This document shows positions 42,001-45,000 of a stretch of 64,000 bases of DNA, piece after piece. Where the stretch lies: NCBI RefSeq assembly GCF_041248615.1, contig NZ_CP158426.1. The stretch is one strand, 5' to 3'. Source of the stretch: Escherichia coli. GTDB taxonomy: Bacteria > Pseudomonadota > Gammaproteobacteria > Enterobacterales > Enterobacteriaceae. Each line of letters begins with the position of its first letter. Within the stretch, counting starts at the first letter, position 1. Made by a program: the position numbers.

Positions 42001-45000
42001 AGCTTTAGCATCAGCTAACTCCTTCGTGTATTTTGCATCGAGCGCAGCAACATCACGCTGACGCATCTGCATGTCAGTAATTGCCGCGTTCGCCAGCTTC
42101 AGTTCTCTGGCATTTTTGTCGCGCTGGGCTTTGTAGGTAATGGCGTTATCACGGTAATGATTAACAGCCCATGACAGGCAGACGATGATGCAGATAACCA
42201 GAGCGGAGATAATCGCGGTGACTCTGCTCATTGCTGACCCCACAAACAGATTTCACGCTCAATCTCACGACGAGTCATGAGACCTTTCCATTGCTTACCG
42301 CCAGCATATGTCCAGCGACGTAGCTGATCACATGCGCCTTTGATATCGCCCTGGTTTATTTTGCGAAGAAGCGTCGATGTTCTGAAATTGCCAGCACCCA
42401 CGTTGTAAACGAATGAGTAAAGAGCGCCGCGCATTGTTTCCGGTATATCGACTTTGATGTACGGGTTAATTTGTCTGGCGACCGTGGCAAGGTCTTTATT
42501 CAGGAGGGCTTTGCATTCTGCTTTGGTATACGTTTTACCGAGCATGATGTCTTTTCCTGTATGCCCGTGACATACAGTCCATACACCAACAATATCTTTG
42601 TATGGTATGTAGCTGACACCTTCCAGACCATCGTTACCACTTGGGCCAGTGATTAACACTGATGCTATAGCAATTGCTCCGCCACCAATAGCAGCAGCAA
42701 CGGCTTTTCGTAATGATGGAGGCATTATTCACCTCTCGCAGCCTTGCGCTTATCTTCTTTAATCTTGAAATAAAGGTTTGTCAGGTACGTCAGCAGGCCA
42801 AATACCAGGCTACCCAGCACACCTATTGCCGCCCACTGTGAGGGCGTGACTTTATCGAGCAACTGTAAAAACCAGTACCCGGCACTACCTGCTGAGGTAC
42901 CATAGGCGACACCCGTTGTTAACTTATCCATGGATTTCATAACCCCACCTCGCAGACAAAGCGGGTGTAAATTAAGGGGATACTACGTATCGCAATAAAG
43001 GCAGAAACGTAACAGATTCGGAGTCAGTGAATAACTCAGGTATTGGGTTATCAGCTAATATCGAGACTCAAAAAATGGAAAAACCCGCTCGACGGCGGGT
43101 TTAAGCTGTGTGACGAAGTAACCACTCTTAACAGCATAACCAATTTTTTACGTACGTAAACTACTAAATGATATTTGTGAGAATGCCACCGAGTGTTCAA
43201 AACACCACCACAAATGCATAAGAAAACTTCAACAAATAACCAGTTAATAATTTCCGATGTTATTTTTAGTTTGTTTAAATTAAGCTAAAGAATTATAGAG
43301 CACTTATAAATAAGTGCCATTAATATAAATTAGCTAATAGATTTATTTTTGTTCAGACAAGAGCCATGAATAGGATTAGATAGAAAAGGTTCAGATAAAA
43401 ATAGAGATCTACTTCACAAATTAAATGAGAAACTAAAACTTACATCTTGAAATAATCACATTGATTAGATGAATATTTATCGCGCAGTGACATCATTTTT
43501 TAATAATAGTTCAAAAAAAGGGCGTACAATGAAAAAATTAACAGTGGCAATTTCTGCTGTAGCTGCATCAGTACTGATGGCGATGTCTGCTCAGGCAGCT
43601 GAAATTTATAATAAAGACAGTAACAAGCTGGATCTATACGGGAAAGTTAATGCCAAGCACTACTTCTCCTCTAATGATGCAGATGATGGTGATACTACTT
43701 ATGCCCGTCTTGGCTTCAAAGGTGAAACCCAAATCAACGATCAACTGACTGGTTTCGGTCAGTGGGAATATGAATTCAAAGGCAACCGTGCTGAATCTCA
43801 AGGTTCTTCCAAAGACAAAACCCGTCTTGCATTTGCAGGCCTGAAATTTGGTGATTACGGCTCAATCGATTACGGCCGTAACTACGGTGTAGCATACGAC
43901 ATCGGTGCGTGGACTGACGTTCTGCCAGAATTCGGTGGTGATACCTGGACCCAAACAGATGTGTTCATGACTGGTCGCACTACTGGTGTTGCAACTTATC
44001 GTAACAACGACTTCTTTGGTCTGGTCGATGGCCTGAACTTTGCTGCTCAGTATCAGGGTAAAAATGACCGCACTGACGTAACTGAAGCCAATGGTGATGG
44101 TTTCGGTTTCTCCACTACTTATGAGTATGAAGGATTCGGCGTGGGTGCAACCTATGCTAAATCAGATCGCACTGACGGTCAGGTCGCCTATGGTAAGAGC
44201 AAATTCAATGCCTCCGGCAAAAATGCGGAAGTATGGGCTGCAGGCCTGAAATATGATGCGAACAATATCTATCTGGCTACCACATATTCTGAAACTCAGA
44301 ATATGACCGTTTTTGGTAATAACCATATTGCAAACAAAGCACAAAACTTTGAAGCAGTAGCACAATATCAGTTTGACTTCGGTCTGCGTCCATCTGTTGC
44401 TTACCTTCAGTCAAAAGGTAAAGACCTTGGTGTTCATGGTGACCGAGACTTAGTCAAGTATGTCGATGTCGGTGCTACTTACTACTTTAATAAAAACATG
44501 TCCACTTTTGTTGATTACAAAATCAACTTAATTGACGATAGTAAGTTTACCAAAACAGCTGGTATTGATACCGACGACATCGTCGCTGTAGGTCTGGTTT
44601 ATCAGTTCTAATCTGACTTACGAAAAAGATATGTTGCGGGAGGCTTTGCCTCCGCAACATATAAGTGGAGCCCTCAAGCCACTTCCTTTAGAAGCACTAC
44701 CTTGCTTCTTACTATATAAACCTTCTGTTATATATTACCCTTTATTTTGGGGGCGTTTCCACGCCCCATTTTTAATAACTTTTAGTAAACAATTGCATAT
44801 CAATTAGAATTATTAGCAACGATATCCATATCTAACCGGATATCTAATGCCATTAACATCCCTTCAATTATGCCCTCAGCCTTCTGTAACCTTTTCCCGA
44901 TATAACCATCCGAGCAGCAATGCTTACTTGCCAGTGACATGAATGTCATACCACATACATAATAATCTACTAATAAATCGTGTAAATCGCTGTTGTTCTT

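What the first reader, a model, noticed from the sequence alone, without database searches (positions are those of the whole stretch)
43068..43102. Terminator hairpin immediately upstream of the lysis genes: candidate tR-prime
On the late strand a GC stem with a T-tract sits just before S. Q lies ~1.7 kb away beyond an opposite-strand porin gene, so the late promoter is probably in 43110-43400. A second hairpin with a minus-strand T-tract at 44625-44657 would stop Q read-through.
Basis: inference. Interest (0 to 1): 0.25.

Follow-up and report, generated by a model that had tools for sequence, protein, structure and literature searches.

The report
Late-operon terminator of a DLP12-like prophage
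The hairpin is real and is most likely the stop signal just after the late promoter of a DLP12-like E. coli prophage, which the phage Q protein overrides to switch on the lysis genes; it is an ordinary member of a known control system, displaced from its Q gene by an inserted porin gene.

Summary
On the minus strand, AAACCCGC-CGTCGA-GCGGGTTT (43102..43081) is followed by TTTTTCCATTTTTT, ending at 43070. It lies 130 nt upstream of essD, a phage-21-type holin gene.

The window is a DLP12-like E. coli prophage. Its order is quuD (Q), then an opposite-strand nmpC porin gene, then essD-rrrD-rzpD.

Window 43163..43079 is 78% identical to the pR' region that abuts Q in Stx phages. That homology places the parts as follows:
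- -35 TTTACG at 43160..43155
- -10 TATGCT at 43138..43133
- transcription start at about 43126
- hairpin at +25..+46

QuuD is 81% identical to Q933W up to codon 120. The porin segment therefore sits between Q and its own promoter.

In relatives selected by a promoter-core motif, 60 of 64 variants keep a GC stem plus T-tract at +20..+39. They use 34 different hairpin sequences, against 7% in shuffles. A palindrome between -35 and -10 tracks the Q allele without exception, while the hairpin is shared across Q types.

In Stx phages the experimentally mapped tR' is a second terminator at +258, so the homologous first hairpin is leaky there. The window has no second terminator. No transcript data exist for this locus.

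This is a new member of a known kind, of low interest.

The parts
43081..43102 (-). Stem-loop of the promoter-proximal intrinsic terminator (candidate tR'), +25..+46 of the predicted late transcript
   Evidence: Sequence; terminator scan; -11.5 kcal/mol. It is homologous to the first 'possible rho-independent terminator' of VT2-Sakai. The structure is kept in 60 of 64 relatives with 34 different sequences.
43070..43083 (-). T-tract TTTTTCCATTTTTT after the stem (+44..+57); the expected 3' end gives an RNA of about 48-57 nt
   Evidence: T-tracts are retained across relatives.
43118..43133 (-). Core motif TGTTAAGAGTGGTTAC (-8..+9). It holds the last base of the -10 hexamer, the predicted start (A 43126 or G 43125) and the first transcribed bases
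   Evidence: Identical in the window, K-12, VT2-Sakai (TGA variant) and SfII, all found by BLAST. It occurs once in the 64-kb window even with 2 mismatches allowed. Start inferred from PMC7547250 plus the sequence.
43133..43138 (-). -10 hexamer TATGCT of the late promoter pR'
   Evidence: Aligns with TATCAT of the annotated VT2-Sakai late promoter.
43147..43160 (-). Palindrome TTTACGTACGTAAA. Its first six bases form the -35 hexamer TTTACG. Candidate Q-binding element
   Evidence: Aligns with TTTACGATCGTAAA of VT2-Sakai. The palindrome type tracks the Q cluster with no exception in 88 loci. All 74 QuuD-type loci retrieved by protein that have enough downstream DNA carry exactly this palindrome. 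It occupies the same position as the direct-repeat site between -35 and -10 in the phage-21-type promoter.
44800..45183 (-). quuD, the Q antiterminator gene (127 aa)
   Evidence: PF06530 at E = 6.7e-54; Q21 structures 6P18/6JNX at E = 4e-8; 81% identity to Q933W over residues 1-120; RefSeq names it quuD in identical genomes.
44623..44662 (-). Strong hairpin plus CTTTTT on the Q strand. Candidate terminator for unmodified transcription leaving quuD. It lies inside the nmpC 3' untranslated region
   Evidence: -21.9 kcal/mol, z = -7.0. Conserved in K-12. On the plus strand it is not followed by a T-tract.
43529..44611 (+). nmpC/lc-type porin gene on the opposite strand, lying between Q and pR'
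   Evidence: PF00267 at E = 1.9e-151; RefSeq annotates it 'porin OmpC'; PA-2 lc and K-12 nmpC are homologues.
42725..42940 (-). essD, a phage-21-type holin and the first late gene; its ATG is at +187 of the predicted transcript
   Evidence: PF04971 at E = 2e-35; RefSeq annotation.
42228..42725 (-). rrrD endolysin, the second gene of the lysis cassette
   Evidence: PF00959 at E = 1.3e-45; RefSeq annotation.
43480..43512 (-). RpoE-like motif GAACTA-N16-TCACT-N5-A. It corresponds to the published K-12 'essDp' and lies upstream of the hairpin
   Evidence: Identical to K-12. Position derived from the '-121 to +650' amplicon and the forward primer in PMC7918800. The original paper is not held.

Best explanation
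The hairpin is the intrinsic terminator that sits directly after the late promoter pR' of this DLP12-like prophage.

Proposed mechanism.
- Host sigma-70 RNA polymerase starts at about 43126 from a promoter with -35 TTTACG (43160..43155) and -10 TATGCT (43138..43133).
- Without Q, most transcripts end in the T-tract at +48..+57. This yields an RNA of about 50 nt and keeps essD-rrrD-rzpD silent.
- When QuuD is made from the early rightward operon, it binds at the promoter, probably to the palindrome TTTACGTACGTAAA between -35 and -10. It then joins the paused polymerase and makes it read through the hairpin into the lysis and later genes.
- The cassette is normally fused to the 3' end of Q. Here a 1.66-kb segment carrying the opposite-strand porin gene nmpC lies between them, so Q works in trans on a detached promoter.

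What is shown: the structure, its position, its homology to a promoter with a mapped start, conservation of the terminator shape, and Q-palindrome co-variation.

What is inferred: promoter activity in this prophage, termination efficiency, and Q binding and read-through.
For: 1. Homology to a mapped promoter. Window 43163..43079 matches the Q-proximal segment of about 287 Stx-phage records at roughly 78%. In Sakai, pR' was mapped by dRNA-seq (PMC7547250). The RNase E site GU|AUU stated to be at +173 falls at L006 1409-1413, which fixes +1 at the A/G of TAAGAG. That corresponds to window 43126/43125.

2. Q relationship. QuuD is 81% identical to Q933W over 120 residues and the homology ends at codon 120. 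In Sakai the Q stop codon lies inside the pR' spacer.

3. Uniqueness. The core motif occurs once in the window. No promoter-like site lies between Q and the porin stop codon.

4. Conserved terminator shape. 60 of 64 variants have a GC stem plus T-tract at +20..+39, with 34 different hairpin sequences, against 7% in shuffles. Three aligned stem pairs show two-sided changes in 2, 19 and 19 of the 71 aligned sequences.

5. Modularity. The identical hairpin occurs with three different palindrome and Q types. No Q cluster at 70, 80 or 90% identity has more than one palindrome type in 88 loci.

6. Sample chosen by protein only. All 74 QuuD-type loci with at least 1.5 kb downstream carry the cassette. 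It lies 55 nt after Q in 4 of them and 1.56-1.71 kb after Q in the rest.

7. Closest structurally studied relative. The phage-21-type leader in SfI also has a hairpin (-20.2 kcal/mol) plus U7 within its first 45 nt or so.

8. No other terminator-like site lies between the promoter and essD.
Against: - In Stx phages the mapped 3' end of the pR' transcript is at +258. The homologous first hairpin (-12.1 kcal/mol, U7) therefore lets a substantial fraction through without Q.
- The window hairpin is only moderately stable and its fold z-scores are weak.
- 19 of 74 QuuD-type relatives, and PA-2, carry a stem-weakening G-to-T change.
- The promoter matches the sigma-70 consensus at only 8 of 12 positions and the scan tool does not report it.
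- The K-12 Term-seq tables held as text list no 3' end near 577,2xx. RNAs of about 50 nt, or a silent cryptic prophage, could explain that.
- Published work assigns DLP12 lysis-gene transcription and Q responsiveness to an RpoE promoter further upstream.
- The loci were selected by the core motif, so the invariance of that motif among them is by construction.
Confidence: 0.72

Rival explanations
1. The working late promoter is the RpoE-dependent essDp at about 43480, as published for K-12 DLP12. QuuD acts there, and the sigma-70 pR' homologue is a relic. The hairpin would still be the barrier that transcripts must pass, but it would end an RNA of about 400 nt rather than about 50 nt.
For: - GAACTA-N16-TCACT-N5-A at 43512..43480 is identical to K-12.
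- PMC7918800 cites RpoE and Q control of the operon and numbers its reporter fragment -121 to +650. With the forward primer, this puts +1 at K-12 576,874, which is window ~43480.
Against: - That motif lies in the flank of the porin gene. It cannot serve relatives with other cargo or none, yet all of them keep the pR' cassette paired with their Q type.
- The published reporter fragment also contains the pR' homologue, at about +355 in that numbering, so Q responsiveness of the fragment does not separate the two promoters.
- In the Q21 structural work Q loads onto a sigma-70-containing paused complex (10.1101/651190).
- The original papers could not be read.
Confidence: 0.12
2. The canonical arrangement holds. 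pR' lies directly after quuD (44800..44660), the strong hairpin at 44662..44629 is tR', and Q-modified polymerase reads antisense through nmpC. The 43102 hairpin is only a second barrier.
For: - In lambda and the Stx phages pR' follows Q directly.
- The hairpin after Q is much stronger (-21.9 kcal/mol, z = -7) and has a T-tract on the Q strand.
Against: - No promoter-like site and no core motif lie between Q and that hairpin.
- The 204-nt block after Q occurs only in the 36 phage records that carry this Q-plus-porin arrangement.
- Homology of QuuD with Q933W ends at codon 120, while the 933W-type promoter is found intact next to essD.
Confidence: 0.04
3. The hairpin is not an efficient terminator. 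It is a leaky attenuator or a 5' structural element of the late mRNA, affecting stability or acting as a nascent-RNA feature used during Q loading. Silencing of the lysis genes then depends on something else.
For: - In Stx phages, transcripts from pR' pass the homologous hairpin and end at +258. StxS-L accumulates even when expressed from a plasmid with its native promoter.
- The stem is modest at -11.5 kcal/mol.
- Stem-weakened variants are common.
Against: - A T-tract directly after the stem is kept in 60 of 64 variants although the stems differ. A stability hairpin would not need one.
- The window has no second terminator before essD.
- Neither tool that was run reports the short RNA that the first hairpin would make. 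The StxS paper's text gives only the +258 end and a 74-nt fragment, and its supplements are not held. Absence of that RNA is therefore untested.
Confidence: 0.15

Closest known systems
pR' region of Stx phages 933W / VT2-Sakai (Sp5) / Sp15
   Same: - Homologous promoter: -35 TTTACG, a palindrome, a -10 hexamer and the core TAAGAGTGGTTAC.
- Homologous first hairpin with a T-tract at the same distance from the start.
- Q proteins 81% identical.
   Different: - There the cassette overlaps the Q stop codon. Here it lies 1.66 kb away, behind a porin gene.
- Stx phages have a second terminator at +258, which is the mapped tR', and make the StxS sRNA. Only +1..+47 is shared with the window.
- The palindrome centre is GATC there and GTAC here.
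Phage 21 Q21 / pR'21 cassette (structures 6P18, 6JNX; sequence seen in phage SfI, whose Q matched 100% over the 82 Q21 residues queried)
   Same: - Same Q superfamily (PF06530).
- A recognition element between -35 and -10.
- A hairpin plus U-tract within the first 50 nt or so.
- The same type of lysis cassette: S21-type holin and a 165-aa endolysin.
   Different: - Q is only about 32% identical.
- Q21 binds a direct repeat; I take the TGAGCAA-A-TGAGCAA repeat seen between -35 and -10 in SfI to be that site. Here the element is a palindrome.
- The promoter sequences are not alignable.
Lambda pR' - 6S RNA - tR'
   Same: Same logic: a constitutive late promoter, a short terminated RNA, and Q-dependent read-through into S, R and Rz (established knowledge of lambda).
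   Different: - Q-lambda belongs to a different protein family.
- Lambda tR' is at +194, not about +50.
- The lambda promoter is adjacent to Q.
DLP12 (qsr') of E. coli K-12, phage PA-2 and phage 434B
   Same: - Same gene order: quuD, nmpC/lc, essD, rrrD, rzpD, bor.
- Window 43160..43005, which includes the promoter and hairpin, is 100% identical to K-12.
   Different: - K-12 and 434B have IS5 inside nmpC and a 17-bp deletion in the essD leader.
- PA-2 has a G-to-T change in the stem.
- None of these records annotates the promoter or the terminator. The 1986 PA-2 record marks the +3..+23 region as a putative CRP site.

Membership tests
Lambdoid Q-dependent late regulatory cassette (Q, pR', Q-binding element, pause element, tR', late genes) | A Q antiterminator gene upstream on the same strand | tested here: met
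   PF06530 at E = 6.7e-54; Q21 structures at E = 4e-8; 81% identity to Q933W.
Lambdoid Q-dependent late regulatory cassette (Q, pR', Q-binding element, pause element, tR', late genes) | A sigma-70 late promoter whose start has been mapped, or a clear homologue of one | tested here: met
   78% identity to the Sakai pR' segment, whose start was mapped by dRNA-seq and tied to the sequence through the +173 landmark. Activity in this prophage was not tested. The consensus match is only 8 of 12.
Lambdoid Q-dependent late regulatory cassette (Q, pR', Q-binding element, pause element, tR', late genes) | A Q-binding element at the promoter, specific to the Q allele | tested here: inconclusive
   The palindrome, centred about 27 nt before the start, co-varies perfectly with the Q cluster in 88 loci and is invariant in 74 QuuD-type loci. 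Binding cannot be tested here, and physical linkage could contribute to the correlation.
Lambdoid Q-dependent late regulatory cassette (Q, pR', Q-binding element, pause element, tR', late genes) | A sigma-dependent promoter-proximal pause element (a -10-like sequence in the early transcribed region) | not testable with these tools
   The conserved +3..+9 TGGTTAC followed by TACNNN is a candidate, but only T and A of a -10-like hexamer are conserved. Pausing needs in vitro transcription.
Lambdoid Q-dependent late regulatory cassette (Q, pR', Q-binding element, pause element, tR', late genes) | An intrinsic terminator between the promoter and the late genes | tested here: met
   conservation of the shape. 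It is the only terminator-like site between pR' and essD.
Lambdoid Q-dependent late regulatory cassette (Q, pR', Q-binding element, pause element, tR', late genes) | Promoter immediately downstream of Q (the canonical layout) | tested here: not met
   The promoter is 1.66 kb from the Q stop codon, with nmpC between them. The same split is seen in most relatives, with varied cargo. This is a layout variant and does not affect the logic, because Q can act in trans.
Intrinsic (Rho-independent) terminator | GC-rich stem, short loop and an immediately following U-tract on the transcribed strand | tested here: met
   8 pairs (5 G-C), a 6-nt loop, then UUUUUCCAUUUUUU.
Intrinsic (Rho-independent) terminator | RNA 3' ends mapped in the U-tract | not testable with these tools
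   No transcript data exist for this prophage. The K-12 Term-seq tables held as text show nothing at 577,2xx, which is not decisive for an RNA of about 50 nt.
StxS-type prophage sRNA (Hfq-binding RNA made by termination of the pR' transcript) | Homology to the functional 74-nt 3' part of StxS | tested here: not met
   Only +1..+47 of the 258-nt StxS-L aligns with the window.
StxS-type prophage sRNA (Hfq-binding RNA made by termination of the pR' transcript) | Hfq binding and a regulatory target | not testable with these tools
   No data are available.

The most novel reading that the evidence does not exclude
Three linked readings are not excluded by the evidence.

1. The variable palindrome centred about 27 nt upstream of the start (TTTACGTACGTAAA here; GCGTACGC, GCGGTCCGC, TTCGTTACGAA and others elsewhere) is the allele-specific DNA site of the QuuD/Q933W branch of the Q21 superfamily. 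That would imply symmetric binding, unlike the direct repeat bound by Q21.

2. Because Q then works in trans, the junction between Q and pR' has become a recurrent landing site for opposite-strand genes expressed in the lysogen. Here that cargo is a porin. In relatives it includes proteins with domains known from anti-phage defence systems (KwaB, GmrSD_N, AAA_15/AAA_21), a caspase-like domain, a nucleoid-associated NA37 protein, and ORFs with no Pfam match.

3. The terminated pR' RNA of about 50 nt may be a constitutive prophage small RNA.
Probability: 0.4. Interest if true: 0.45.

Novelty: new member of a known kind. Interest (0 to 1): 0.22.

Why it matters
For this locus the result is mainly an annotation. 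It places the late promoter, the start site and the Q-overridden terminator of DLP12-type prophages. These prophages are present in most complete E. coli genomes: 4650 of 5426 have a match to the region.

It also offers a sigma-70 alternative to the published RpoE promoter for the K-12 lysis cassette. Basal expression of that cassette has been linked to vesicle production (PMC7918800). A single, moderately stable terminator could explain such leakiness, but that is my inference.

More broadly, the comparison shows that Q and its promoter stay a matched pair when separated by up to 3.8 kb of foreign genes. That is useful for predicting which Q controls which late operon, including the toxin genes of Stx phages.

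Tried and rejected
- Rfam with permissive thresholds on 40000-48000 found nothing at either hairpin. The only hit was a Trp_leader-like match with E = 0.99 at 47475-47564.
- The consensus promoter scan does not report the homologous promoter. It reports only 43320..43292, whose -35 is not conserved in K-12. I did not adopt it as pR'.
- Rueggeberg 2015, Toba 2013, Plunkett 1999 and Thomason 2015 are not held. The essDp position was therefore reconstructed indirectly, and the reverse primer did not match K-12 exactly.
- The K-12 Term-seq supplements show no 3' end near 577,2xx. The StxS paper has no supplements held. Whether a short RNA ends at the first hairpin therefore remains open.
- Alignment-based covariation across all 71 variants was blurred by register shifts, and only 3 pairs were predicted. 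I relied on per-sequence detection instead.
- A second BLAST match to the hairpin, at 35409..35384, lies inside a 501-aa ORF and was dismissed as chance.
- In the first Q clustering, two of the promoter-adjacent ORF groups treated as Q (example loci L057 and L012) proved not to be Q. The analysis was redone with a Q sequence signature.
- The protein-based retrieval returned only close QuuD relatives (85% identity or more). It is therefore free of motif selection for this clade only.
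Full report
**What is in the window.**
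The region is the late-control segment of a lambdoid prophage. It is 100% identical over 2.5 kb to prophages of extraintestinal E. coli strains such as IHE3034, ABU 83972 and APEC O18. The gene order on the minus strand is:
- quuD, the Q antiterminator, at 45183..44800
- an nmpC/lc-type porin gene on the opposite strand, at 43529..44611
- essD, a phage-21-type holin, at 42940..42725
- rrrD, the endolysin, at 42725..42228
- rzpD/rzoD, followed by bor/iss on the plus strand

This is the layout of the K-12 cryptic prophage DLP12, of phage PA-2 and of phage 434B.

**The observation.**
- On the minus strand, AAACCCGC-CGTCGA-GCGGGTTT occupies 43102..43081. It is followed by TTTTTCCATTTTTT, ending at 43070.
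- The terminator scan reports 8 pairs with 5 G-C. The hairpin alone folds at -11.5 kcal/mol.
- Taken alone it is unremarkable. Fold z-scores are -1.5 and -2.0, and a 5-kb scan finds about as many terminator-like sites as shuffles do.
- It is, however, the only such site in the 660-nt nmpC-essD spacer, against 0.2 expected.
It spans 44662..44629, folds at -21.9 kcal/mol with z = -7, and is followed by CTTTTT on the Q strand.

**Where the late promoter is.**
- Against K-12 DLP12, the spacer is 95% identical overall. Window 43160..43005, which includes the hairpin, is 100% identical while the flanks diverge.
- A BLAST of 43170..42941 against phage genomes matched 361 records.
- In about 287 Stx phages the match covers only query positions 8-92, which is window 43163..43079. 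It falls on the 3' end of Q and the sequence just after it.
- VT2-Sakai annotates that segment as 'putative late promoter', 'putative Q-utilization' and 'possible rho-independent terminator'.
- The alignment shows shared -35 TTTACG, a palindrome (TTTACGTACGTAAA here, TTTACGATCGTAAA in Sakai), a -10 hexamer (TATGCT versus TATCAT), an identical block TAAGAGTGGTTAC, and the hairpin with its T-tract.

**Fixing the start site.**
- The StxS study mapped the pR' start of the Sakai Stx phages by dRNA-seq and the 3' end by Term-seq, 258 nt apart. It places an RNase E cut in GU|AUU at +173 (PMC7547250).
- In the Sakai sequence, GTATT lies at L006 1409-1413 and the U-tract of the second annotated terminator ends at 1495.
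- Both landmarks put +1 at L006 1238/1239, the A/G of TAAGAG.
- Transferred to the window, +1 is 43126 (or 43125), the hairpin is +25..+46, the T-tract runs to +57, and the essD ATG is at +187.

**Why Q is far away.**
- QuuD and Q933W are 81% identical over residues 1-120, and the homology ends there.
- In Sakai the Q reading frame runs on into the promoter, with its stop codon in the -35/-10 spacer.
- In the window, Q ends after seven unrelated codons. The next 1.66 kb is the porin gene with its flanks, and then the 933W-type promoter resumes. The porin segment therefore sits between Q and its cognate promoter.
- The 204 nt after Q occur only in the 36 phage records with this Q-porin arrangement. 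They contain no promoter-like site and no copy of the core motif, which is unique in the 64-kb window.

**Is the hairpin a selected feature?**
- I scanned IMG/VR for the core TGNTAAGAGTGGTTAC, a key that does not include the hairpin, and obtained 120 loci.
- Of 64 distinct transcribed-region variants, 60 have a GC stem plus T-tract starting at +20..+39. They use 34 different hairpin sequences, for example CCCGCC...GGCGGG, CCTCGC...GCGGGG and CCTCAC...TGAGG.
- The rate in shuffles is 89 of 1280.
- An alignment of 71 variants shows two-sided changes in three stem pairs, although register shifts limit that test.
- A terminator-shaped element about 25-50 nt after the start is therefore a conserved part of this promoter type.
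- The phage-21-type leader, seen in phage SfI (whose Q matched 100% over the 82 Q21 residues I queried), has the same feature: -20.2 kcal/mol, z = -4.5 and U7 within about 45 nt.

**What goes with Q and what does not.**
- In every locus with enough upstream DNA, a Q homologue lies upstream. It either abuts the promoter or lies 0.6-3.8 kb away, with opposite-strand ORFs between.
- The -35/-10 interval holds a palindrome whose centre is always about 27 nt before the start and whose sequence varies.
- After restricting to ORFs with the Q signature, 88 loci remained. No Q cluster at 70, 80 or 90% identity had more than one palindrome type.
- Same-palindrome pairs of Q have a median identity of 84%. 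Different-palindrome pairs have a median of 49% and a maximum of 66%.
- The three largest clusters show 13, 11 and 11 different Q-to-promoter distances.
- By contrast, the exact hairpin of the window occurs with three palindrome types.
- A retrieval by Q protein alone gave 80 QuuD-type loci. All 74 with at least 1.5 kb downstream carry the core and TTTACGTACGTAAA. It lies 55 nt after Q in four loci and 1.56-1.71 kb after Q in the rest.
- My reading is that the palindrome is the Q-specific part (a candidate Q-binding element), the hairpin is a generic terminator module, and Q acts in trans. Physical linkage and shared ancestry could inflate the correlation, and binding is untested.

**Caveats on 'tR''.**
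- In Stx phages the mapped tR' is the second terminator, at +258. The 258-nt RNA accumulates even from a plasmid carrying only the native promoter.
- The homologous first hairpin there (-12.1 kcal/mol, U7) is therefore leaky.
- The window shares only +1..+47 with that transcript and has no second terminator. The hairpin is thus the only candidate barrier here, and it may not be tight.
- 19 of 74 QuuD-type relatives, and PA-2, carry a stem-weakening G-to-T change.
- Neither tool I ran could report a short RNA ending at the first hairpin, so whether one exists is untested. The StxS paper's supplements are not held, and the K-12 Term-seq tables list nothing at 577,2xx.

**The published alternative.**
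- PMC7918800 cites Q, RpoE and Hha as regulators of the DLP12 lysis operon. It clones 'the regulatory region from -121 to +650'.
- Its forward primer maps to K-12 so that +1 falls at 576,874. The preceding sequence is GAACTA-N16-TCACT, which is RpoE-like. In the window this is 43512..43480.
- That site is also upstream of the hairpin, so the hairpin's role as a barrier is unaffected.
- The site belongs to the flank of the porin gene. It cannot be the general Q target, because relatives with other cargo or none keep the sigma-70 cassette.
- The published fragment also contains the pR' homologue, so Q responsiveness of that fragment does not distinguish the two promoters.
- I could not read the original papers.

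**The second hairpin.**
- On the Q strand it has the form of an efficient intrinsic terminator. On the porin strand it has no T-tract, and the porin's own terminator is at 44750..44767.
- It would stop unmodified polymerase leaving quuD from running antisense into nmpC.
- N-modified polymerase in the lytic cycle would be expected to pass it, from established knowledge of lambda.

**Verdict.**
- The element is a member of the known lambdoid pR'-tR' system in its Q21-superfamily form, with the terminator within about 50 nt of the start.
- Its one unusual trait is a common layout variant in which foreign genes separate Q from its promoter.
- Interest for the finding itself is low.
- The Q-specific palindromes and the cargo site between Q and pR' are the more interesting by-products. 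They are supported only by comparison of sequences.

Noticed in passing
window 43147-43160 (-); loci L009-L128: The -35/-10 interval of this promoter family holds a palindrome at a fixed position and of variable sequence: TTTACGTACGTAAA, GCGTACGC, GCGGTCCGC, TTCGTTACGAA, GTTATAAC, TGTAATTACA, TGTCATGACA and GGAATTCC. Its type tracks the Q protein cluster without exception in 88 loci, while the downstream hairpin is shared between types. It is a candidate allele-specific Q-binding element.
   Followed up: yes
loci L004, L016, L023, L025, L040, L044, L056, L065, L068, L075, L082, L091 (between Q and the promoter): In relatives the slot filled here by the porin gene holds other opposite-strand ORFs of 148-1060 aa. 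Pfam matches include AAA_15/AAA_21 ATPase, KwaB (Kiwa), GmrSD_N, a caspase domain and NA37. Five of the ten tested have no match. The slot looks like a recurrent cargo site upstream of pR', so its genes are not under late control.
   Followed up: partly
window 44612-44775 (+): The nmpC 3' untranslated region is about 164 nt long, with three hairpins and a terminator at 44750-44767 plus ATTTTT. It is 95% identical to K-12. From my own knowledge, this corresponds to the ipeX RNA region described for DLP12 and PA-2, which lowers OmpC/OmpF. Rfam has no match.
   Followed up: no
window 43480-43512 (-): An RpoE-like motif, GAACTA-N16-TCACT, is identical to K-12. It lies 17 nt from the nmpC start codon on the other strand and matches the position of the published essDp as reconstructed from PMC7918800.
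   Followed up: partly
window 43292-43320 (-): This is the best consensus sigma-70 match in the spacer: ATGGCA-17-TATAAT, 10 of 12. The -10 is conserved in K-12 but the -35 is not. If active, it would give an RNA of about 210 nt ending at the same hairpin. Its function is unknown.
   Followed up: no
window 43051-43200 (-): A 49-aa TTG-start ORF spans the promoter and the terminator. Several phage records annotate a 'hypothetical protein' overlapping this spacer. It is probably not a gene.
   Followed up: no
window 42986-43003 (-), approximate: A 17-bp stretch of the essD leader (CTGCCTTTATTGCGATA) is present here but absent from K-12 DLP12.
   Followed up: no
loci L130-L209; L005 (PA-2): 19 of 74 QuuD-type relatives, and PA-2, carry GAGCTGG instead of GAGCGGG in the 3' arm of the stem, which removes a G-C pair. 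This may be a naturally leakier terminator.
   Followed up: no
window 47475-47564 (-): A weak Trp_leader-like Rfam match (E = 0.99) is really a GC hairpin, GGCCTGCAGG...CCTGCAGGCC, followed by TTTTTAT. It sits just upstream of the ninB-like ORF at 47474..47016. Its position is reminiscent of lambda tR2.
   Followed up: no
L005 1730-1750 (PA-2 record), equivalent to about window 43104-43124: The 1986 PA-2 GenBank record marks a 'CRP binding site' on what is here the first 23 nt of the predicted late transcript, GTGGTTACTTCGTCACA. Only the TCACA half fits the CRP consensus when read by eye.
   Followed up: no
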